Below, in pieces: positions 26,035 through 38,849 of a stretch of 64,000 nt of DNA. Made by a program: the position numbers and the translations under genes. Source of the DNA: a virus. Its lineage: Duplodnaviria > Caudoviricetes. Numbering within the stretch: the stretch's first letter is position 1; every line of letters starts with the position of its first letter. The stretch is from positions 96,001 through 160,000 of the IMG/VR virus record IMGVR_UViG_3300048854_000081; one strand, given 5' to 3'. The notes beneath the pieces are model-generated. The model had not been told where the DNA came from, made no database searches, and saw only the letters and a program-made list of their open reading frames with translations.

Positions 26035-27254
26035 GGTCTATCCTTAAAGGTTAACTTGCTTATGACATATCTTTTCGTACTGAAAGTATACAACACTTCG
26101 TAGAGTTGCCCATCAAAGTCATGTAGAGATTGTGAAATCCCGGCACTCATGGAGTGTGTGTCATACAATCTACTATCTTCGCTTAGTTTATCAAGCATTA
26201 TAGCTTCATCTTCCAAGGATAATCTGTCATAGGAAAATGAATACAAAATAGTATTATAAACTAACCCAAGAACGTTTTGACCCTCGGCTTCAATGGTTTC
26301 ATCCATAAAATCATTCCAATCTCTTTCCATACTTTCAGGAGTTGAATTGAAGGAATATGTTCTTATGATATAGGACTTAAGTCCGGCCATAAACTGACCT
26401 AGCTTCTTGCCATGTAGGCCGGTTGCATTGGCAACAATATCACCATTGTAATACTTCTTAAATTCAAGACTCTTCTCAAATTCCTTAGTAGCACTGGCAA
26501 CTTCAGCATCGAACTCCGGTCCAAAGAATTCGATAGCACGCTGATAATGAGCATCCCGCTCTTCGACAGTTAACTTAGGTCTATCTTCCAAGCCCTTTTC
26601 CTGAATGTAAGCAATCATCTTCTGATACATCTTGCGCTTGGAATTGCGAACACGGTCATTGTGTGACTGATCTTCCAGCGTAAAGTAAGCAGGATTGAAT
26701 AGTGGACTGCCGGCTGCATAAGCAAAGATTTCATCTTCGGTCTCAAATCCTTCCAGCCACGATTCATAGTCATAGCCAAGGAATTCTAAGATTTTCTTAG
26801 TGTCTCTAGATATGATGATGGATTTCTTGAAGTGATCACCCAAACGAAGCTCATAGACAAGACCATCATGACCATATTTCAGGTTGATGGAACGAGCCGT
26901 ACGACCGATGAAGTTACCAAGGTCATTCCAGCAAAAATAGCTCCATGCTGGTAGGAAATCGTCACTACTCATCGAGATAAAGTCTACCTGTACTCCTTTG
27001 AATTCAAAGGAGAAGAACATGTTGTTGTGATAGACAGTCTTAGGATTTATACGTTCCATGACTAAGGCTGGCACATCAATACCAGCGTTTTCCACCACGA
27101 TATCGATATCACCGAAGTCTTTCTTTTGATAAAAAGCTCGGACAGCCTTCATCTTTAGCTGAGGGAATAGACCCTGAAGCTCTTCGCACAGTTCAAAATA
27201 CTCGGATCGAGGAATTCTGCGTGCGTCTTTAATTGCGTTGCCGCCCATATCCAT
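26031..27254 (-). CDS. Pol-beta superfamily nucleotidyltransferase
   Basis: KDFGDIDIVV (GDxD) and VQVDFI catalytic motifs; GDIV...GLHGKKLGQF resembles CCA-enzyme tails. Confidence 0.7.
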   Translation of the reverse strand: MDMGGNAIKDARRIPRSEYFELCEELQGLFPQLKMKAVRAFYQKKDFGDIDIVVENAGIDVPALVMERINPKTVYHNNMFFSFEFKGVQVDFISMSSDDFLPAWSYFCWNDLGNFIGRTARSINLKYGHDGLVYELRLGDHFKKSIIISRDTKKILEFLGYDYESWLEGFETEDEIFAYAAGSPLFNPAYFTLEDQSHNDRVRNSKRKMYQKMIAYIQEKGLEDRPKLTVEERDAHYQRAIEFFGPEFDAEVASATKEFEKSLEFKKYYNGDIVANATGLHGKKLGQFMAGLKSYIIRTYSFNSTPESMERDWNDFMDETIEAEGQNVLGLVYNTILYSFSYDRLSLEDEAIMLDKLSEDSRLYDTHSMSAGISQSLHDFDGQLYEVLYTFSTKRYVISKLTFKDRP

Positions 27255-29193: not shown

Positions 29194-29586
29194 TTAAACG
29201 GTTAGCTCTTTGAATGCTTCGAAGGTGAATCCTTCACCAAACGGAGCCAGTAATGGCTTAATAAATTTCTCCATGTCACTCTCAGATGAGCGATGACGTA
29301 AGAAGTTGATACGCTGGCGAACGTCTACAAGAGCACCTTCAGAGAAGATGACACTAGGGTCACGCTTGCGGATTAAGGCGTAGACGTAGTGATGGATGGC
29401 CTTGAGGTCAGACTCCCAGCGATAGCCACTGACTTGCTTGGCCTTCTCACCACCCCAAATCCATTCGTTAAAGTGCGTATCGACCTTGTACTTCTTGTGA
29501 CGGCCATCTGCGATAAACTTCTTCCACGATGCGCGGATAGCAAGGAACTGTTCTTTGGTAAAAATTGAGGTTTCGTTAGTATTCAT
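29194..29586 (-). CDS. Hypothetical protein downstream of the HD-Pth2 gene
   Basis: AAGGA RBS; HHYVYALIRKR motif. Confidence 0.7.
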   Translation of the reverse strand: MNTNETSIFTKEQFLAIRASWKKFIADGRHKKYKVDTHFNEWIWGGEKAKQVSGYRWESDLKAIHHYVYALIRKRDPSVIFSEGALVDVRQRINFLRHRSSESDMEKFIKPLLAPFGEGFTFEAFKELTV

Positions 29587-29598
29587 GGTTTATTTTCC

Positions 29599-30465
29599 TT
29601 ATTTGAGTAGTTGAAATCTTGAAAACGCTTTACGATCTTTGCCGATAAGTGGACGGGAGGCCAGTGCGGTCGCCTGATTACCAATATCGGGTTCCTTAAA
29701 AATAGTGTAATCGATGCCCTGCGCCGCGAGTTCGTCAGCACACTTCATCAACTTTGCTTCACTCTTGATGGAGCAGAGGATCACCGAAGGGTGTTCATCA
29801 CCATCTTTAAGAAATTTTCTCCCCGACTCGATGGCAGCATGAGACGCCTGCACGGCCTGTTGGGCGGGGCTGAGGTCATTGCGCACGAGGACATACATGT
29901 AAGCATGATCGAAGAGCTTCTTACAGATTTGCTTGCCAAGCTTTTCAAGCTTCTTAAACTTGATCTTGAAGCTGTCAGACTCGATACCACCAAACATATT
30001 GGCGTTCGAATGCAACTCTGCGAGAGCCGTGATCATGAGGGTGCAGAGGTCTTTTGTGGAAAGATTCTGTGACAGGATGTCGTCCGCCTTCAGGGTATGG
30101 AAATCCATATCATGTTCGATCAAAGTCGAAATGACTGGGCGATTCGGGAAGAGAGTATCCCAAATTTCCTTAGACTGATTAGCGTGATCGGGGAAATGCT
30201 GCTTACCATCTGCGTCAACAGTGCGACAAAACGGCTTACCGATGTCGTGCCAGATGTTGTAATGCCTGATGGTCTTATAATCGTGAAGGTTACCAAGAAT
30301 CTGATCTTGATAGTCAGTAAACCATTGCGGTAAACGGAAGCCTTCTGTATCGCCAGAGATAAGGCGACGGGTATAACTCCAAACACTCAAACCATGCTGA
30401 ATAATGCTCTGGTTCTTGGCCTGCTTGGTGGCCTTCATGCTGTTAATGGTCTATGCAAGGTTCAT
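29599..30465 (-). CDS. HD-domain phosphohydrolase fused to a Pth2-like peptidyl-tRNA hydrolase; start at 30465 with an in-frame TAG at codon 5, or at 30438
   Basis: QHG...WHDIGKP...FPDHA...HDMDFH HD domain; YVLVRNDLSPAQQAVQASHA...FKEPDIGNQATALA Pth2-like domain. Confidence 0.75.
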
Positions 30466-30525
30466 TGTCGTATTTCCTTTGTTGGGTTGTGACCGGAACA
30501 TTCCGGATCGAGGTCTAATATACAG

Positions 30526-30531
30526 TATTTA
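30526..30531 (-). promoter_or_regulatory. Late promoter motif TAAATA upstream of the HD-Pth2 module
   Basis: CTAAATA about 60 nt upstream of ATG 30465, with an intervening CCGGAA/TTCCGG hairpin. Confidence 0.5.
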
Positions 30532-30537
30532 GATGAA

Positions 30538-31380
30538 TCAAAACTGAATAGAATTTGTTATCCAGTTCTTCACCGCTTCTGGTGAGCAAGAATTCATGAA
30601 CTTAGTTTTACAGTTATTCGATATAAAGTCAAGATAGGCTTTATCATCCTTGTATCGCTCAATCAGGTCGATGACATCGCTGAAGTCACCCTTACATTCA
30701 ATGTAATCGATATTTGCTTCAAACTGGTGGCCGAACGGCAGCAATGTCGATATGTAAGGAGTGATGACCGGAATACCTAGGGCAAACGATTGAAGGTGCG
30801 TTCTGTCTAAGATGTCATTGGTCGCACCCGGCACAACCACGTTCATACGGCAGGTATTCATGGAAGACAGGTATTCACTCTGCTCTACCATGGTGAAATC
30901 TACTGGAACGCCACTATACGCTTTTAGTTTGTCGAGAACCAGATTGCGGCGCTCAATAGCACCGCCATATATCTTACATTTATAGAAGATACTACCATGA
31001 GGATCATATGATATAGAATCTTTGAGGGTTGAATAGTCCGACCAGTTCATGAAAGACATCGGTGCAAAGGGGATACATCTAGGATCGGAGTGACCCGTCG
31101 TGTGGAATTTAAAATAAGGAATGTCTGAATCTATCAGCTTGAAGTCCAACACATTGTAATGGAAATCTGAGTAATCAAAGATGGCTTTCTTTCCATCAAT
31201 CTCGACAGCAAAATTGTTATTATGCTTGGCATCTTTGACGGTGGTATCTTCATCTACGATGGTAACGGTTCCCATGTGCTCAAGATAGTTCAAGACATGC
31301 TTATAATGTGTAATATAATAAGCTTCTTGTGAAAGATTACACAATGTCTGACAGGCTTTACCGGGAAAATTGATTATCAT
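30538..31380 (-). CDS. Putative GT-B glycosyltransferase (CgeB/exostosin-like C-terminus)
   Basis: EYLSSM...VVPG...DR..QSFALGIPVITP...DYIEC..DFSDV...ISNN. Confidence 0.6.
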   Translation of the reverse strand: MIINFPGKACQTLCNLSQEAYYITHYKHVLNYLEHMGTVTIVDEDTTVKDAKHNNNFAVEIDGKKAIFDYSDFHYNVLDFKLIDSDIPYFKFHTTGHSDPRCIPFAPMSFMNWSDYSTLKDSISYDPHGSIFYKCKIYGGAIERRNLVLDKLKAYSGVPVDFTMVEQSEYLSSMNTCRMNVVVPGATNDILDRTHLQSFALGIPVITPYISTLLPFGHQFEANIDYIECKGDFSDVIDLIERYKDDKAYLDFISNNCKTKFMNSCSPEAVKNWITNSIQF

Positions 31381-31778: not shown

Positions 31779-33473
31779 TCAGTTTTTGTAGTGTCTGTTT
31801 TCTCTTCGTGTCGATCCATCGTAATGGAACTTGCGGAAATGATTGATTGGAGCGGCTAATAGGCTACCAACCTTCATCTTCTTATCAAACGTGTACTGGC
31901 AACTCAAGCTGGAAAGCGTCTGCTCATACCAATGTTCAAACTCATCGGAAAGGAACAACTGACGGTTACCTCTCTTATTGAACAAGAGCGGCCAGTTAGA
32001 ATAGTGATAGTTACCTACAGCATAGGCTAAGCCCTTGTAGGAGCCTGTGTAATCAACGCGCGTCTTCCAGCGTAACTCATCACTACCCTTATCATCAGGG
32101 AAGATTTCATCGCGTCTGTGGTGAGCTACGTTCTTGTATCCCCAGTTGAAGTGACAGTCACCAAACACTTCCGTATGCGATAAACGTAAGAAATCCAGAT
32201 CATTATCTTCAAGAATATCAATACTCTTCTGGAACAGATTTGGAATGTATCTTACAAAACCATTCTTACATGGTTGACCCTTAAGAATCTTACCAGTTGG
32301 ACTCTCACCCCAGTCAGCATCGTTCTCGCCGTCACATACCAAGAGCATATCATCTTCAAAGAAGATCATGTACTTGTGGTTACTTTTGTCAAAATGCTTT
32401 GAACAGAATACACGACCATCGTTAATGCCAAGGTTATCACCTTCATGGATGACCTCAAAGCCATATTCCTTAAACAAATCGGAATATTCCTGAGCCAAGT
32501 TAGGATCAGTGGAGTTATTGACTACATACTTCTTATTCTTTTCAAATTCTTCCGGGTAAGCTACACGGAAAGATTCTGCCCACATCTTAAACTGACGTGG
32601 TAGATTGTAAGTGATTGCATAGAAGGCTAGTGGGAATTCTGGTTCTGCTTCAATCTTGTTCTGCTGAAGGTCTTCAAAGAACTTGTAAACAAGTCCATTA
32701 CCTTCAATGTAACGAATATTGTACTTCTTAGGATCACGGTAGGTGGCTAGAGTGAATACCGATTCTTCCGTACCCATGTGACCAGCGTTCAATGTATCAT
32801 TTAGAAGGTGGTAATACTGATCATTGAACGAATTGATCGCATCCTTGTTACCACCGAACACTCCACCACGACAAACGTACTTGGTGTCGGTACCAGCATA
32901 TGAATTCATGGCTGATTTAGTGAAACCGTGGACTTCTACCTGACCATCATAAGGGAAAGCAAGGAACATCATCTTGTTTAGATGAGGAATGATTTGCTTT
33001 TCAAGTGCTGGGGTAAAGTACTGCTCAAGGTTTACTGTATTGGAAAGACCACCATCTACCCATAGAAAATACTTGGTATCAAAGTAATTGAATAGGGAAG
33101 CATCATTTAACATGAACTGCTTATTCATTACAAGTGGATTGTACAGTTCAAGCTTAGCTTGGGTACTATCGACTAACCAACCAGCCTGATTGTACCAGCT
33201 TGGATTAGTTCTAATTGATTGAATCTTTTCATTGAATGGAAAAGCTCTAAGATCGTCCAATGTCTTTAGGATGACGCGAGTATTTTCGCGACCTCTGATT
33301 TCCCAAACCACACTTTCGTATTGTGGTTCGATGTAGACCACCATAGGAAAGTCTAGTCTAAGCATTCTCTTGAAGCACTCTAGGTAATGATCGAAAGAGC
33401 GCTTCATACCGCCTTCCATTTCACCACGGCCTAGGTTAAACAATCCCGTTACTAAGGTTAAATTTCTTGTCAT
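31779..33473 (-). CDS. HtrL/YibB-like domain fused to a GT-A glycosyltransferase domain
   Basis: TLVTGLFNLGR...RSFDHYL...NYFDTKYFLWVDGG...GGVFGG...GTEE (HtrL-like); C-terminal NLGINDGR...FFEDD. Confidence 0.7.
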   Translation of the reverse strand: MTRNLTLVTGLFNLGRGEMEGGMKRSFDHYLECFKRMLRLDFPMVVYIEPQYESVVWEIRGRENTRVILKTLDDLRAFPFNEKIQSIRTNPSWYNQAGWLVDSTQAKLELYNPLVMNKQFMLNDASLFNYFDTKYFLWVDGGLSNTVNLEQYFTPALEKQIIPHLNKMMFLAFPYDGQVEVHGFTKSAMNSYAGTDTKYVCRGGVFGGNKDAINSFNDQYYHLLNDTLNAGHMGTEESVFTLATYRDPKKYNIRYIEGNGLVYKFFEDLQQNKIEAEPEFPLAFYAITYNLPRQFKMWAESFRVAYPEEFEKNKKYVVNNSTDPNLAQEYSDLFKEYGFEVIHEGDNLGINDGRVFCSKHFDKSNHKYMIFFEDDMLLVCDGENDADWGESPTGKILKGQPCKNGFVRYIPNLFQKSIDILEDNDLDFLRLSHTEVFGDCHFNWGYKNVAHHRRDEIFPDDKGSDELRWKTRVDYTGSYKGLAYAVGNYHYSNWPLLFNKRGNRQLFLSDEFEHWYEQTLSSLSCQYTFDKKMKVGSLLAAPINHFRKFHYDGSTRRENRHYKN

Positions 33474-35068: not shown

Positions 35069-37399
35069 TTAGGCATCCAACATCTTGTATCTGCTGCTGT
35101 TCTCAATCGATGAAATCAATAGATAATCATGATCCTTACCAATCTTTCCGGTATCCATGTACCACAATAGGATGCCTTCGTAATTGTTAGAGAACCATTC
35201 TAGGTTTTCTAGGTTACCACAGAAGAGTGCAGCCGTTGGGTAATGATTGATTTCAGCCTTGAAACGATCCTTGACGTAAGCCGCATCGAATATGCTTTCA
35301 ATATTCTTCTTAGAAGAAATGATGACATGCTCATCAGTCTTAGCGAACTGAGACAGAAGATCGACATCACGAGAGATATTGTAGGCATATTCACGTTCCT
35401 GTAACTCATCCAAGTTAACAAATAGGTGATATTTGCTGTTGTAAACATTGGCGTGAATCACTTCCTTACACCACAATAGCTTGATGTACTTAGCAAATTC
35501 AACCGTAGAATGCGTATGGAAGGTGAAACGTGCCGTTAGGCGAGAATCATAATAATGCTGTCTTGGTGTAATTGGGAAATACTTCAACGAGTCACTAGTT
35601 GGTAGAACAGCAGAGTATTTTTCCAAATTATACTGAGGAATCATAACAACAAGATTTCTACCATCACGGATCAAACCCTGAATCTTAGAAATATCACCAT
35701 CGATATCAGACTGATTATCCTTAAATGACAATACGTAGATCGATGTATCGTCAGATAGGGCAACCTTTTCCTGCTCTTCCTTCTGCTTTGTAAACTTATT
35801 GTTCGAAGCCTTGGAGATAATCTTACCTTCAAAGTAGACAGCATCAAGTTCGGTGTCTCTTAGAATCTTGAATGCATCTGAAAGACGGGTAAGAATAGGC
35901 TTACCGTCAACGTTAAACGACGTATTCAATAGAACACCATGACCGGTCAACTTCTCAGTCTCACCGATTAGATCATAAATTAACTGATTCTGGCTACGGG
36001 TAATGGTCTGTAGACGTGCAGTATTGTCTTCATGAGTAATAGCAGGAATCTTATCACGCCATTCTTCACGAACATTAGCCACGAACACCATGTGGCGGGA
36101 TTCAACGCCTTCATCGAATTCAAAATACTTAGGACAGTCTTCAAGACGAACCATAGGCGCGAATGGACGATACCACTCTCTATGCTTAACCTTATTGTTA
36201 AGAACATCCTTCATATCACCGACCGGGTTACAGATAATACTTCTGTTACCCAATGCACGGGAACCATGCTCAGAATTACCCTGAATCATACCGACAATGT
36301 TACCATCGGCGATAAATCGAGCCAAATCTTCTAACTGAACGTTTTCGTGAACAACTAGATCGTATTCCTGTACGTATGTACCGAATTGATTCTTATCTAG
36401 GATAGGAGCACCAGAATAGGTCAAATCAACCTGATTATCTGGCTTCAAATACCACATAAGACCACCGGAAGCAATACCACAGTCATTTACGTTAGGTGGA
36501 ACGAAAACCTTGTTATTTCTAAGCTTTAGAAGCTTGGAGTTCAACAATACGTTAAGCGCACAACCACCGGCCATTGAGACTGGCATATCTGGATACTTGT
36601 CTAGATATTTCTGTGCATACTTAAAGAACTGGTTTTCAAATGACTTCTGTGAAGTTGCTGCAATGTCCCAAGCAAGCTGACCTTCATAACGACTGGTTTC
36701 GAAGTTGAAATCATCACAACCAATACCCTTAAACAAAGCTGTTAGGGCATCATAGCGAGCTTCAGCACCACCAATGTAAGAATTACCAATGTAATTGAAC
36801 TTGGAATAGAATTCATCAAAATGAGGAACCCATTCGTCGCGAACAGTGCCGTATGAGCATAGACCCATGATTTTACCAGCATACACTAGATTACCAATAC
36901 TCAAAGCTTCCTTCTTGATATCCTTGATATAATCACAGATGATCATGTATGGGAAACCTAAGTCTTGGTTAAACTTATCGACTAGAGTAATACCAGTCTG
37001 TCTATTTGCTAGATACACATTGAAATAGCCACCATCGCCGCCACCATCAAAGGTGAAAACGAGAGATTCTTTATATGGGGACTGATAGAATGCGGTTGCT
37101 GCATGAGCGGTATGATGATCATAACCTAGAGCTTCCTTAGTATGGAATTTAGGCTTGATATTTTGTACGTAATCGGTTAGATATACGTCAACATCACTCC
37201 TGTCCGTGGTGGACAGGAGGTAGTCTGTAATTTCATCAAAGACAATCTGAGGATGCTTGCACGGCATGTAGGTGGTCAGACCTATGTTCTTAGAATTCAA
37301 CCACCTTTCGACTTCAATTACCCTATATTCACCCTTGTAATACATTGCTATTGCAGCATTGTGCGATCCATATGCCGATAGGATTAATTTGTCTTTCAT
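35069..37399 (-). CDS. NodU/CmcH/TobZ-family O-carbamoyltransferase with a C-terminal HtrL-like extension
   Basis: HNAA, EVER, HHTAHA, DGGGD, GKIMGL, GGCALN, NDCG, GSRALGNRSI, REWYRPFAP, NTSFN; about 240 extra C-terminal aa. Confidence 0.9.
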   Translation of the reverse strand: MKDKLILSAYGSHNAAIAMYYKGEYRVIEVERWLNSKNIGLTTYMPCKHPQIVFDEITDYLLSTTDRSDVDVYLTDYVQNIKPKFHTKEALGYDHHTAHAATAFYQSPYKESLVFTFDGGGDGGYFNVYLANRQTGITLVDKFNQDLGFPYMIICDYIKDIKKEALSIGNLVYAGKIMGLCSYGTVRDEWVPHFDEFYSKFNYIGNSYIGGAEARYDALTALFKGIGCDDFNFETSRYEGQLAWDIAATSQKSFENQFFKYAQKYLDKYPDMPVSMAGGCALNVLLNSKLLKLRNNKVFVPPNVNDCGIASGGLMWYLKPDNQVDLTYSGAPILDKNQFGTYVQEYDLVVHENVQLEDLARFIADGNIVGMIQGNSEHGSRALGNRSIICNPVGDMKDVLNNKVKHREWYRPFAPMVRLEDCPKYFEFDEGVESRHMVFVANVREEWRDKIPAITHEDNTARLQTITRSQNQLIYDLIGETEKLTGHGVLLNTSFNVDGKPILTRLSDAFKILRDTELDAVYFEGKIISKASNNKFTKQKEEQEKVALSDDTSIYVLSFKDNQSDIDGDISKIQGLIRDGRNLVVMIPQYNLEKYSAVLPTSDSLKYFPITPRQHYYDSRLTARFTFHTHSTVEFAKYIKLLWCKEVIHANVYNSKYHLFVNLDELQEREYAYNISRDVDLLSQFAKTDEHVIISSKKNIESIFDAAYVKDRFKAEINHYPTAALFCGNLENLEWFSNNYEGILLWYMDTGKIGKDHDYLLISSIENSSRYKMLDA

Positions 37400-37424
37400 G
37401 TTTTCTCTTTATTATTTGCTAGTC

Positions 37425-37430
37425 TATTTA
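37425..37430 (-). promoter_or_regulatory. Late promoter motif TAAATA heading the carbamoyltransferase/HtrL operon
   Basis: ATAAATA about 25 nt before ATG 37399. Confidence 0.65.
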
Positions 37431-37436
37431 TTAAAA

Positions 37437-38849
37437 TCAACTGTCTGCTAGACGGTCGATTCTAACCAACCAATCGTTCGAAGTGGTGTGCGGCCAAATC
37501 GTATAGGTCTTAGCGATGCGTGATGGATCACACATAAAGATGAAGCGATAGTCAACCCAATCACCCTTTAGATAAGCGGCAATTTCGTTAGCATCAAGGT
37601 CTTTTCTGAAGATTTCTTCGCCGTTCTCATCATGCGTACCAACGTACCAGAAATCGAAGTCAGTACCCGGATAAGTCTCTTCAACCTTAGTTTCAGGATT
37701 GACCCACTTAACGTCGTTCTTGTGAATGCATACGCGGATGTCATTCGAACGAGCAATGGTGGACTTCCATTCTTCTTCAGAATCGAAGGTCTGATATTCT
37801 AGGGTTGGTTCAACACGATCAAGAACCTTCTGCTGAACGCCACGGTACTTGAAGCTCATACCGGCATATTCTTCAAACTGCTTGACAGTACGGACAGTAC
37901 CGAAACCATACTTACCAAAATCGATCTGAGACTGGTCTTCACCGTCCATGCCGAATAGGATACGATTTCTCTTATGGCACTTGACGTTCTTTTCCCACCA
38001 ATCTTCAGTAATCTTACCCTTCTGCTTCTGCTGGGTGGTGTGGTCATCCCAAACCTTGACGCGACCCTTACGAGTATATTCGTGCCAAGCAACAGTTTTA
38101 TGTGGGTGATACAGATCGTAGCCGTGGGTGAAGGCACGAACACCGATAGAGATTTCTTCACCATGGAAGAAATATTCTGGATCATGCTGTACTTCTTCGG
38201 CAAAAGAGCCGTCAGCGAATGCAAAGTGAGCACTGTAGAAGCGCGAGAGCATTGGCTTGGTACGTTCCTTGTAATCATCAATCGTGGAAGGGCGGAAGAA
38301 CACTGCGCCTTCTGGAATGAAGCGATCAAAGTCCATTTTCCATGGTTCCTGAACACGACCGGCTGGATCGTTTTCTGGATCAAAAGAAGATATGTAAGCC
38401 GTCAATAGAGGCTTCGGACTTACATCCCTTACAGATTCTAACATTTCGATTAGTACCGTATCCCACCCCGGTATAAATCTATGATGCGAATCGAGTTGTA
38501 GGGTATATTTTTCCTTACCATAATGCTGCTGAATCTTGTTACGTGCCCAGCAAGCACCATGTGTCTTCAAATAATGAAGATCGATGAGTTCTACGGTTGC
38601 TCCATTCAACGTTAGCGTGTGGACAGTATCGCCCAACTTTTCGCCAGTAGAAACTACATCAAAAGACTTGTCGAGGAAATCCTCAACGGTTTCGTCTGCG
38701 GCATGCTGCCAACAGATAGTTACTCTTAGTAACTCTGGATGTTCTGCGTGTTCAATCATGTCAACTAGGGTTGGGATTAGTTGATGATCACGATAGCTCG
38801 CAATCTGTACGAATATCGTATTCTTGCTTTTGGTCTTAGTCTTAGCCAT
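37437..38849 (-). CDS. GT60-like polypeptide N-acetylhexosaminyltransferase (Gnt1/Skp1-GlcNAc-transferase-like)
   Basis: IFVQIASYRD, GACWAR, YTLQLDSHHRF..GWD..LI.M, FFHGEE...R.FTHGYDLYHP, YG.G..R. Confidence 0.8.
   Translation of the reverse strand: MAKTKTKSKNTIFVQIASYRDHQLIPTLVDMIEHAEHPELLRVTICWQHAADETVEDFLDKSFDVVSTGEKLGDTVHTLTLNGATVELIDLHYLKTHGACWARNKIQQHYGKEKYTLQLDSHHRFIPGWDTVLIEMLESVRDVSPKPLLTAYISSFDPENDPAGRVQEPWKMDFDRFIPEGAVFFRPSTIDDYKERTKPMLSRFYSAHFAFADGSFAEEVQHDPEYFFHGEEISIGVRAFTHGYDLYHPHKTVAWHEYTRKGRVKVWDDHTTQQKQKGKITEDWWEKNVKCHKRNRILFGMDGEDQSQIDFGKYGFGTVRTVKQFEEYAGMSFKYRGVQQKVLDRVEPTLEYQTFDSEEEWKSTIARSNDIRVCIHKNDVKWVNPETKVEETYPGTDFDFWYVGTHDENGEEIFRKDLDANEIAAYLKGDWVDYRFIFMCDPSRIAKTYTIWPHTTSNDWLVRIDRLADS

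What the first reader, a model, noticed from the sequence alone, without database searches (positions are those of the whole stretch)
29599..30531. Amber-gated HD-hydrolase/peptidyl-tRNA hydrolase fusion: the best RBS opens onto an in-frame TAG
Seen on the minus strand: AAAGGAAATACGACA-ATG AAC CTT GCA TAG ACC ATT AAC AGC ATG AAG... The ATG at 30465 has a Shine-Dalgarno sequence and is in frame with the 279-aa ORF, but codon 5 (30453-30451) is TAG. The downstream ATG at 30438 has no recognisable SD. The product fuses a CCA-enzyme-like HD domain (HDIGKP) to a Pth2-like domain. Known: Pth enzymes recycle peptidyl-tRNA and N-acetylated aminoacyl-tRNA, HD domains can heal tRNA 3' ends, and minigenes promote peptidyl-tRNA drop-off. 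Inference: expression is conditional on amber read-through (suppressor tRNA or RF1 inhibition) or on re-initiation after the MNLA minigene. That would make a translation-state sensor controlling a tRNA-rescue enzyme, possibly countering tRNA-targeting host defences.
Basis: partly seen in the sequence, partly recalled or inferred. Interest (0 to 1): 0.82.

Follow-up and report, generated by a model that had tools for sequence, protein, structure and literature searches.

The report
Suppressor-tRNA-gated phage tRNA-end enzyme gene
A giant phage that otherwise uses the normal genetic code keeps a UAG stop as the fifth codon of a gene for a two-part tRNA-end enzyme and carries its own UAG-reading tRNAs. 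The same pairing recurs in dozens of distant phages, so the enzyme is probably made only when those tRNAs override the stop.

Summary
On the minus strand a Shine-Dalgarno AAGGA precedes ATG 30465, TAG 30453-30451 is codon 5, and it lies in frame with the 279-codon frame that starts at ATG 30438.

It is not an error or chance:
- All six close relatives keep SD-ATG-(1-4 codons)-TAG. These include the cultured phages XacN1, Xoo-sp13, RAS14 and CM1. Three of them have no ATG at the second position.
- In 80 further phage loci, 56 HD-like and 42 of 53 PTH2-like genes open the same way. None of the 42 PTH2-like genes has any other start codon.
- The window's 350-kb genome has two tandem CUA tRNAs. 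XacN1, Xoo-sp13 and RAS14 each have at least one.
- 35 of the 80 loci have a CUA tRNA within 2.5 kb.
- The five loci gated by TGA instead all carry UCA tRNAs. They sit at three separate places on the tree.

The genome is not recoded; this is the only such gene in it. The product joins a CCA-enzyme-type HD domain to a divergent Pth2-like domain.

Best reading: expression is gated by the phage's own suppressor tRNA. The purpose of the circuit is unknown. This scan found the same module earlier in other genomes, and I found no paper describing it. The XacN1 authors reported that they could not find targets for these tRNAs.

The parts
30475..30479 (-). Shine-Dalgarno AAGGA, 9 nt upstream of the first ATG
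   Evidence: An AGGA, GAGGA or AGGAG motif 7-10 nt before the first ATG is present in all six close relatives.
30454..30465 (-). Gate leader: ATG plus three sense codons (M-N-L-A)
   Evidence: Relatives have ATG plus 1-4 codons at the same place. In the survey the nearest ATG is usually 2-4 codons before the stop.
30451..30453 (-). In-frame amber codon TAG (codon 5), followed by A
   Evidence: TAG is invariant in the five-genome alignment and present in L072 and L073. Across 98 distinct gates the next base is A 72, G 19, C 7, T 0.
30439..30450 (-). Four codons (T-I-N-S) between the TAG and the second ATG; read as coding
   Evidence: The pattern [T/N]-[I/L/F]-[N/K]-x is kept across relatives with changes at codon positions 1 and 3. 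Pooled mismatches by codon position in this stretch of HD-like genes are 91:70:109, a weak coding signal.
30436..30438 (-). Second in-frame ATG without a Shine-Dalgarno sequence; a conserved Met and a possible fallback start
   Evidence: It is Met in 53 of 56 gated HD-like genes, but CTA or TTA in RAS14, CM1, L073 and L083.
29914..30438 (-). HD-superfamily domain of the CCA-adding-enzyme type (residues 1-175)
   Evidence: Model pLDDT 94. 3wfo residues 259-445 match at Z 13.9, rmsd 2.6 A, 146 aligned; other HD folds reach Z 10.4 or less. Profile E 3.6e-4. H15, H64-D65 and D110 are invariant or nearly so.
29602..29913 (-). Divergent PTH2-like domain (residues 176-279)
   Evidence: Pfam PF01981 E 2e-4, 22 bits against a cut-off of 23. 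Foldseek matches 2zv3, 3erj, 1wn2, 1xty and 1q7s. 1wn2 matches at Z 14.5. A family profile matches 2zv3 at E 1e-4, with Gln at the Pth2 GKGK lysine and Glu at the DAG aspartate.
29599..29601 (-). TAA terminator of the gene

Best explanation
The gene at 30465-29599 (minus strand) is translated from the SD-led ATG at 30465. Its fifth codon, UAG, is decoded by the phage's own amber-suppressor tRNAs. These are two tandem CUA-anticodon tRNAs about 99 kb away, at genome positions 26819-26975. The full-length product of 288 residues is therefore made only when those tRNAs are expressed, matured and charged by a host synthetase, and when they out-compete host RF1. Otherwise the ribosome releases a four-residue peptide.

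The product is a bifunctional enzyme aimed at the tRNA 3' end. It joins an HD phosphohydrolase domain of the kind attached to bacterial CCA-adding enzymes to a divergent Pth2-like domain.

What is shown:
- The anatomy of the gene start.
- Conservation of the early stop.
- The presence of cognate suppressor tRNAs.
- Co-variation of the stop codon with the tRNA anticodon.
- The lack of alternative starts in many homologues.
- The two folds.

What is inferred:
- That read-through actually happens.
- Which amino acid is inserted.
- What the circuit is for.

My preferred purpose is that the enzyme acts on the suppressor tRNA itself or on the products of suppression (aminoacyl- or peptidyl-tRNA, or damaged 3' ends). 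Its amount would then track suppressor activity, either as a feedback like prfB or as a clean-up made on demand. I hold this weakly.
For: 1. All five aligned genomes keep SD-ATG-(1-3 codons)-TAG, and the TAG is invariant. RAS14 and CM1 have CTA in place of the second ATG. L072 and L073 do the same, and L073 has TTA there.
2. Distant phages (Serratia BF, Ralstonia RsoM2USA, Acinetobacter ME3, Salmonella Arash, Tenacibaculum pT24, and huge uncultured phages) have the domains as separate genes or in the reverse order. They still open with ATG-x-TAG and have no other start before the domain.
3. In the survey of 80 IMG/VR loci, 53 HD-like genes are gated by TAG and 3 by TGA. Of 53 PTH2-like genes, 41 are gated by TAG and 1 by TGA. 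None of the 42 gated PTH2-like genes has a canonical start after the stop.
4. Suppressor tRNAs are present. This genome has two CUA tRNAs. XacN1 has two, Xoo-sp13 one and RAS14 one. ME3 has one 450 bp upstream. A CUA tRNA lies within 2.5 kb in 35 of the 80 loci.
5. The five TGA-gated contigs all carry UCA tRNAs. They lie at three separate places among TAG-gated relatives on the HD tree.
6. The genome is not recoded. TAG flanked by long frames is not enriched. There is no internal conserved TAG in 184 conserved frames. This is the only SD-ATG-early-TAG-long-frame site in each of the four genomes.
7. The base after gate stops is a purine in 91 of 98 cases and never T. T is the commonest base after ordinary TAG terminators in the four genomes.
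8. The XacN1 authors reported that they could not identify targets of its two CUA tRNAs (PMC5852040).
Against: - Nothing is experimental. Neither expression nor charging of the tRNAs, nor the protein's N-terminus, has been seen.
- In this gene an ATG lies 4 codons after the TAG, as in 53 of 56 gated HD-like genes. Termination followed by re-initiation could therefore give product without any suppressor.
- The coding signal between the TAG and that Met is weak (91:70:109).
- About 6% of this genome's long frames end in TAG, and host genes do too. A strong suppressor would have a cost.
- The PTH2-like domain has Gln at the position of the Pth2 catalytic lysine. The phage also has a separate, canonical, ungated PTH2. 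The enzyme's substrate is therefore uncertain.
Confidence: 0.78

Rival explanations
1. Leader mini-ORF with termination and re-initiation. Ribosomes start at ATG 30465, terminate at the TAG after four codons, and restart at ATG 30438, 12 nt downstream. The upstream ATG-TAG would then serve only to deliver ribosomes to a start that lacks its own Shine-Dalgarno sequence, and the suppressor tRNAs would be irrelevant.
For: ATG 30438 has no SD and lies 12 nt after the stop. A Met at this position is kept in 53 of 56 gated HD-like genes, 5-16 codons after the stop. Re-initiation over short distances is established in bacteria (my own knowledge).
Against: RAS14, CM1, L073 and L083 have Leu codons at that position. 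None of 42 gated PTH2-like genes has any canonical start after the stop. Any stop codon would serve for re-initiation, yet the stop is TAG in 94 of 98 gates. It is TGA in genomes whose suppressor is UCA. It may still add a basal level of product in this particular gene.
Confidence: 0.1
2. Read-through independent of the phage tRNAs. The UAG-A context near the start is leaky, or is read by a near-cognate host tRNA, and gives a fixed low expression level. The phage CUA tRNAs would then serve another purpose.
For: The context is strongly biased, with A after the stop in 72 of 98 gates. Stops within the first few codons are known to terminate poorly (my own knowledge).
Against: This does not explain the physical linkage of suppressor tRNAs to the module in 35 of 80 loci. 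It also does not explain the three independent TAG-to-TGA changes that match UCA tRNAs.
Confidence: 0.06
3. Sequencing or assembly error, a recent pseudogene, or a chance upstream ATG and TAG.
For: A single in-frame stop close to a start can arise by chance. About nine SD-ATG-short-stop sites occur in this genome.
Against: The stop is invariant in independently sequenced cultured phages and in metagenomic contigs at 45-86% protein identity. The reading frame downstream is intact and highly conserved in 550 homologues.
Confidence: 0.01
4. Genome-wide stop-codon reassignment (TAG read as an amino acid throughout, 'code 15'), as in Lak or crAss-like phages.
For: Suppressor tRNAs are a hallmark of such phages (bioRxiv 10.1101/2021.08.26.457843).
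Against: TAG flanked by long frames is no commoner than TAA or TGA. No internal TAG occurs in 184 conserved frames. 24 of 414 long frames end in TAG. The genome encodes no release factor and no Gln/Glu- or Lys/Asp/Asn-type aminoacyl-tRNA synthetase.
Confidence: 0.02

Closest known systems
Stop-codon-recoded phages with phage-encoded suppressor tRNAs (Lak, crAss-like and other phages; Borges et al., bioRxiv 10.1101/2021.08.26.457843)
   Same: A phage-borne suppressor tRNA allows translation of phage genes that carry in-frame stops in a standard-code host. That work proposes this as a post-transcriptional switch.
   Different: In those phages dozens to hundreds of late or lysis genes are recoded and coding density collapses under code 11. 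Here the genome is standard-code. A single gene (or gene pair) is affected, always within the first few codons, and it is always the same two tRNA-related enzyme families.
prfB (release factor 2) autoregulation through an early in-frame UGA
   Same: An early in-frame stop in a gene of the translation apparatus makes its expression depend on how that stop is decoded.
   Different: prfB escapes the stop by a +1 frameshift and senses the level of its own product. Here the frame is unchanged, a dedicated tRNA is implied, and feedback of the enzyme on that tRNA is only a hypothesis.
Archaeal/eukaryotic peptidyl-tRNA hydrolase 2 (Pth2, PF01981; PDB 1wn2, 2zv3, 3erj, 1xty, 1q7s)
   Same: The fold is the same (Z 14.5), as are the N-terminal VRxDL...Q..HA motif and the conserved Thr.
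   Different: The domain falls just below the Pfam cut-off in this protein. It has Gln for the GKGK lysine and Glu for the DAG aspartate. It is fused to an HD domain. The phage has a separate canonical PTH2 that is not gated.
HD domain of bacterial class II CCA-adding enzymes (PDB 3wfo-3wfs; E. coli Cca HD domain, with 2',3'-cyclic phosphodiesterase and phosphatase activities, from my own knowledge)
   Same: It is the best structural and profile match. The FHDIGKP motif is shared, and the H...HD...D metal ligands are conserved.
   Different: The domain stands alone, without the nucleotidyltransferase head. The phage's own CCA-adding enzyme (391 aa) shows no HD domain in Pfam.
Lambda bar minigenes and peptidyl-tRNA drop-off
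   Same: Both have a very short SD-led ORF ending in a stop, in a setting linked to peptidyl-tRNA hydrolase.
   Different: Bar minigenes are stand-alone and act by sequestering tRNA. Here the mini-ORF is in frame with, and continuous with, a conserved coding sequence, and its stop co-varies with a suppressor tRNA.

Membership tests
Pth2 (PF01981) peptidyl-tRNA hydrolase | Sequence match over Pfam's gathering score | tested here: inconclusive
   The whole protein scores 22.0 bits against a cut-off of 23. The genome-wide search gives 23.7 bits for the same stretch. Many homologues carry a precomputed PF01981 hit.
Pth2 (PF01981) peptidyl-tRNA hydrolase | Pth2 alpha/beta fold | tested here: met
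   1wn2 matches at Z 14.5, rmsd 2.2 A, 102 aligned. Foldseek gives probability 1.0 and target TM about 0.7 to 2zv3, 3erj, 1xty and 1q7s.
Pth2 (PF01981) peptidyl-tRNA hydrolase | Catalytic Lys (GKGK) and Asp (DAG) reported for archaeal Pth2 (residue roles from my own knowledge) | tested here: not met
   The profile alignment to 2zv3 puts a nearly invariant Gln at the Lys position and an invariant Glu at the Asp position. The genome's other, canonical PTH2 keeps RRGK and DSG.
Pth2 (PF01981) peptidyl-tRNA hydrolase | Hydrolysis of peptidyl-tRNA | not testable with these tools
   Needs an enzyme assay.
HD-domain metal-dependent phosphohydrolases | H...HD...D metal-binding motif | tested here: met
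   H64, D65 and D110 are invariant and H15 is nearly invariant in 29 homologues.
HD-domain metal-dependent phosphohydrolases | HD fold | tested here: met
   Fourteen chains match at Z 8 or more, nearly all of them HD domains. The best is 3wfo at Z 13.9. Pfam HD models do not match the domain.
Stop-codon-recoded (alternative-code) phages | Many genes with in-frame recoded stops; coding density rises under the alternative code | tested here: not met
   only this gene.
Suppressor-tRNA-gated HD/PTH2 module (seen earlier in this scan, not in the literature I could search) | SD-ATG, 1-8 sense codons, in-frame TAG or TGA, then the domain | tested here: met
Suppressor-tRNA-gated HD/PTH2 module (seen earlier in this scan, not in the literature I could search) | Cognate suppressor tRNA in the same genome | tested here: met
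   Two CUA tRNAs lie at genome positions 26819-26975. Here they are about 99 kb from the gene, not adjacent to it.
Suppressor-tRNA-gated HD/PTH2 module (seen earlier in this scan, not in the literature I could search) | Read-through product actually made | not testable with these tools
No proteomic data are at hand.

The most novel reading that the evidence does not exclude
The suppressor tRNA and the gated enzyme form a closed control loop on the tRNA 3' end. The HD and Pth2-like enzyme would deacylate, trim or heal the very suppressor tRNA (or tRNAs like it) whose activity permits its synthesis. The early UAG would then act as a built-in gauge of how much charged, intact phage tRNA the infected cell holds. 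This would be a tRNA-level counterpart of prfB autoregulation. It may be used to time or limit stop-codon read-through, or to report attack on tRNA ends by host defences.
Probability: 0.2. Interest if true: 0.9.

Novelty: new variant of a known kind. Interest (0 to 1): 0.78.

Why it matters
Many jumbo phages that use the standard code carry suppressor tRNAs with no known target. The XacN1 paper says so explicitly. A conserved early stop in one fixed pair of tRNA-enzyme families gives these tRNAs a natural, testable target, and it exists in phages that can be grown in the laboratory (XacN1, Xoo-sp13, RAS14, CM1, Serratia BF, Acinetobacter ME3).

It also matters for annotation. Gene callers start these genes at a later Met or break them up, so databases hold truncated or missing proteins.

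If the gate works as read here, it is a compact natural translational switch built from one tRNA and one codon. It would be of interest for phage gene timing and as a part for synthetic biology.

Tried and rejected
- Global recoding was rejected.
- A search for other gated genes in this genome and in XacN1, Xoo-sp13 and RAS14 found none beyond the rate seen for TAA and TGA controls.
- No conserved RNA structure lies around the TAG that might promote read-through. The consensus fold has only -3.7 kcal/mol and 10 weak pairs.
- The simple sigma-70 scan found no promoter directly upstream of the gene, and no terminator.
- The suppressors do not look like initiator tRNAs that would start at UAG. 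Both have G1-C72 and lack three G-C pairs next to the anticodon loop (my reading).
- The amino-acid identity of the suppressors could not be settled. The second is nearest to phage tRNA-Lys, tRNA-Met and tRNA-Phe bodies. The first has no close relative.
- The genome has no release-factor gene, no GlnRS/GluRS-type (tRNA-synt_1c) gene and no LysRS/AspRS/AsnRS-type (tRNA-synt_2) gene.
- A single-sequence search of the C-terminal domain against solved structures found nothing. Only the family profile reached Pth2.
- Literature searches found no description of the module.

Full report
**1. What is in the window**

Read on the minus strand, the region runs: AAGGA (30479-30475), 9 nt, ATG (30465), AAC CTT GCA, TAG (30453-30451), ACC ATT AAC AGC, ATG (30438), then an open frame to TAA (29601-29599). 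The listed ORF is 279 aa from ATG 30438. From ATG 30465 the frame is 288 codons with the amber at codon 5. No Shine-Dalgarno-like motif precedes ATG 30438.

**2. Where the window comes from**

The window is bases 96001-160000 of a 350,036-bp virus record estimated to be complete. The gene's nearest cultured relatives are Xanthomonas phages XacN1 and Xoo-sp13 and Stenotrophomonas phages RAS14 and CM1, at 63-69% protein identity. In those genomes the neighbouring genes include a glutamyl-tRNA amidotransferase-like gene, an NAD synthetase and a valyl-tRNA synthetase.

**3. The stop is conserved**

- An alignment of the five start regions shows an SD, an ATG, one to three codons and an invariant TAG in every genome, followed by ACC or AAC, xTT, AAx.
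- RAS14 and CM1 have CTA where the window has its second ATG. RAS14's annotators had to start the gene 18 codons further in.
- Two IMG/VR relatives repeat the pattern: M-S-F-T-stop in L072 and M-K-L-S-stop in L073. L073 again has Leu instead of the second Met.
Database proteins start at the second Met only because gene callers cannot pass the TAG.

**4. The pattern reaches far beyond this clade**

- In Serratia phage BF, Ralstonia phage RsoM2USA, Acinetobacter phage ME3 and Salmonella phage Arash the two domains are separate genes in the opposite order.
- The first gene there, the PTH2-like one, opens M-T-H-stop, M-L-stop, M-T-stop and M-L-stop respectively. It runs straight into the first strand of the domain with no canonical start.
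- Tenacibaculum phage pT24 and two huge uncultured phages do the same.
- Klebsiella phage RaK2 is an exception. It has a normal start.

**5. Survey**

A profile search of IMG/VR gave 252 relatives. The best 80 loci were analysed with domain HMMs.

- Of 80 HD-like genes, 53 open with ATG, 1-8 codons and TAG, and 3 with TGA.
- Of 53 PTH2-like genes, 41 are gated by TAG and 1 by TGA.
- Where the domains are separate genes, each usually has its own early stop.
- None of the 42 gated PTH2-like genes has ATG, GTG or TTG between the stop and the domain. 53 of the 56 HD-like genes have a Met 5-16 codons after the stop.
- In ungated HD-like genes of the BF group, the start ATG sits exactly where gated homologues have the stop. 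The gate therefore looks like a short in-frame add-on in front of the normal N-terminus.
- One contig (L084) carries an HD-PTH2 fusion with two in-frame TAGs, one at codon 3 and one at the domain junction. A CUA tRNA ends about 55 nt upstream. This looks like an intermediate between the split form and the fused form seen in this window.

**6. Suppressor tRNAs**

- ARAGORN finds 41 tRNAs in the window's genome. Two are tandem CUA-anticodon tRNAs at genome positions 26819-26892 and 26899-26975, both with encoded CCA. None lies in the window itself.
- XacN1 has two (doubled in its terminal repeats, next to a tmRNA), Xoo-sp13 one, and RAS14 one plus a UUA tRNA.
- ME3 has an annotated CTA-anticodon tRNA 450 bp upstream of the module.
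- A CUA tRNA lies within 2.5 kb of the module in 35 of the 80 loci.
- Two TGA-gated loci (L149, L152) have a UCA tRNA beside them. The contigs of the other three TGA-gated loci (L111, L122, L124) all contain UCA tRNAs, and no CUA tRNA was among those recovered.
- On a tree of the HD domains the TGA gates fall at three separate places among TAG gates. The stop and the anticodon have therefore changed together at least three times. This is the strongest evidence that the tRNA reads the gate.

**7. The genome is not recoded**

- TAG flanked by long open frames is no commoner than TAA or TGA.
- Among 184 conserved frames no alignment spans an internal TAG.
- The scan for SD-ATG-short-TAG-long-frame finds only this gene in each of the four genomes. 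The remaining hits are at the rate of the TAA and TGA controls.
- TAG ends 24 of 414 long frames here, about 6%.
- The XacN1 authors read through 18 amber terminators, found nothing and stated that they could not identify targets for the suppressors (PMC5852040). The target appears to be at the start of a gene, not at its end.

**8. Context of the gate**

- After the stop the next base is A in 72 of 98 distinct gates, G in 19, C in 7 and T in none. ATT is the commonest next codon, at 34 of 98.
- After ordinary TAG terminators in the four genomes T is the commonest base.
- A purine after UAG favours suppression in E. coli (my own knowledge).
- No conserved RNA structure surrounds the stop.
- The stretch between the stop and the Met in HD-like genes evolves fast. 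Its codon-position bias is weak but in the coding direction, at 91:70:109, against 216:130:404 in the domain.

**9. The protein**

- The AlphaFold model built from 29 homologues has mean pLDDT 94.
- Residues 176-278 have the Pth2 fold. 1wn2 matches at Z 14.5, and Foldseek matches 2zv3, 3erj, 1xty and 1q7s.
- Residues 1-177 are an HD fold. It is closest to residues 259-445 of the class II tRNA nucleotidyltransferase 3wfo (Z 13.9, rmsd 2.6 A), well above other HD domains at Z 10.4 or less.
- A family profile aligns HDIGKP to that enzyme's FHDIGKP at E 3.6e-4. The HD metal ligands H15, H64, D65 and D110 are conserved.
- In the Pth2-like half, a profile alignment to 2zv3 puts a conserved Gln at the GKGK lysine and a Glu at the DAG aspartate.
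- The genome also has a canonical PTH2 with a normal SD-ATG start. It keeps both residues and is not gated.
- The genome's 391-aa CCA-adding enzyme has no detectable HD domain.
- The gated protein is therefore a specialised paralogue, not the phage's general peptidyl-tRNA hydrolase. Both of its halves point at the tRNA 3' end.

**10. Mechanism and rivals**

The best reading is read-through of the UAG by the phage's own suppressor tRNA. The tRNA would be charged by a host synthetase, since the genome has no GlnRS/GluRS-type or LysRS-type gene, and would compete with host RF1, since it has no release-factor gene. Putting the stop within the first few codons makes failure cheap, because only a tiny peptide is released. 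It also makes the identity of the inserted residue unimportant.

Termination followed by re-initiation at ATG 30438 may add some basal product in this gene. It cannot be the general mechanism (section 5), and it does not explain why the stop type follows the tRNA. Error, pseudogene and global recoding are excluded.

The purpose remains open. The candidates are feedback on the suppressor, clean-up of the by-products of suppression, and a delay timer. None of these can be told apart by sequence. A repair enzyme that is made only when a tRNA works does not fit a simple damage sensor.

**11. Earlier work**

After reaching this reading I looked up the scan's notes. The same module had been reported from eight other genomes, with the same conclusion. 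One later check priced the bold switch reading at about 20 in 100.

What this window adds:
- The fused single-gate form.
- Suppressors placed about 99 kb from the gene.
- A direct link to the unanswered question in the XacN1 paper.
- The double-TAG intermediate (L084).
- The ungated canonical PTH2 in the same genome.
- The active-site differences.

Searches of the paper library found no description of the module. The jumbo-phage survey PMC7824862 notes PTH2 in these phages but mentions neither stops nor suppressors.

Noticed in passing
Outside the window: genome positions about 200,960-201,400 (+), locus L188: A second, canonical PTH2 gene (PF01981, 94.6 bits) with a normal SD-ATG start and no in-frame stop. 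It keeps the RRGK lysine and DSG aspartate and lies beside the tRNA-Tyr/Phe cluster.
   Followed up: partly
L084:2440-3300 (IMGVR_UViG_3300009481_000010): An HD-PTH2 fusion frame with two in-frame TAGs, at codon 3 and at the domain junction (…NDP-stop-GHTYVFV…). A CUA tRNA ends about 55 nt upstream of the ATG. One read-through would give the HD domain alone and two would give the fusion.
   Followed up: partly
XacN1 (L008 1494-3068; record 36047-37621): The two tandem CUA suppressor tRNAs of XacN1 lie about 1 kb upstream of a phage tmRNA gene (tag ANANTFDYALAA), all within the terminal repeat. This links stop-codon read-through physically to ribosome rescue.
   Followed up: no
RAS14 record 302428-302502 (minus strand): ARAGORN calls a tRNA with a UUA (ochre-reading) anticodon in addition to the CUA tRNA. 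I did not look for TAA-gated genes.
   Followed up: no
L077:1460-1500 (Klebsiella phage RaK2): The PTH2-like gene has a normal ATG start, but an in-frame H-TAG lies four codons upstream with no ATG before it. BF-type phages have M-T-H-TAG at that place. It may be a relic of a lost gate.
   Followed up: no
window 31779-33473 (-): A 564-aa ORF two genes upstream whose N-terminal 260 residues match HtrL_YibB (PF09612, E 9e-18). The 280-aa ORF directly upstream (30538-31380) and the 130-aa ORF directly downstream (29194-29586) have no Pfam match. The downstream ORF is conserved next to the gene in L073.
   Followed up: partly
L068, L071 and L003 (annotated phage records): Because of the early stop, deposited annotations break up or truncate these genes. 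Serratia BF has two small fragments, Arash has a 50-aa 'peptidyl-tRNA hydrolase', and RAS14 starts 18 codons late.
   Followed up: yes
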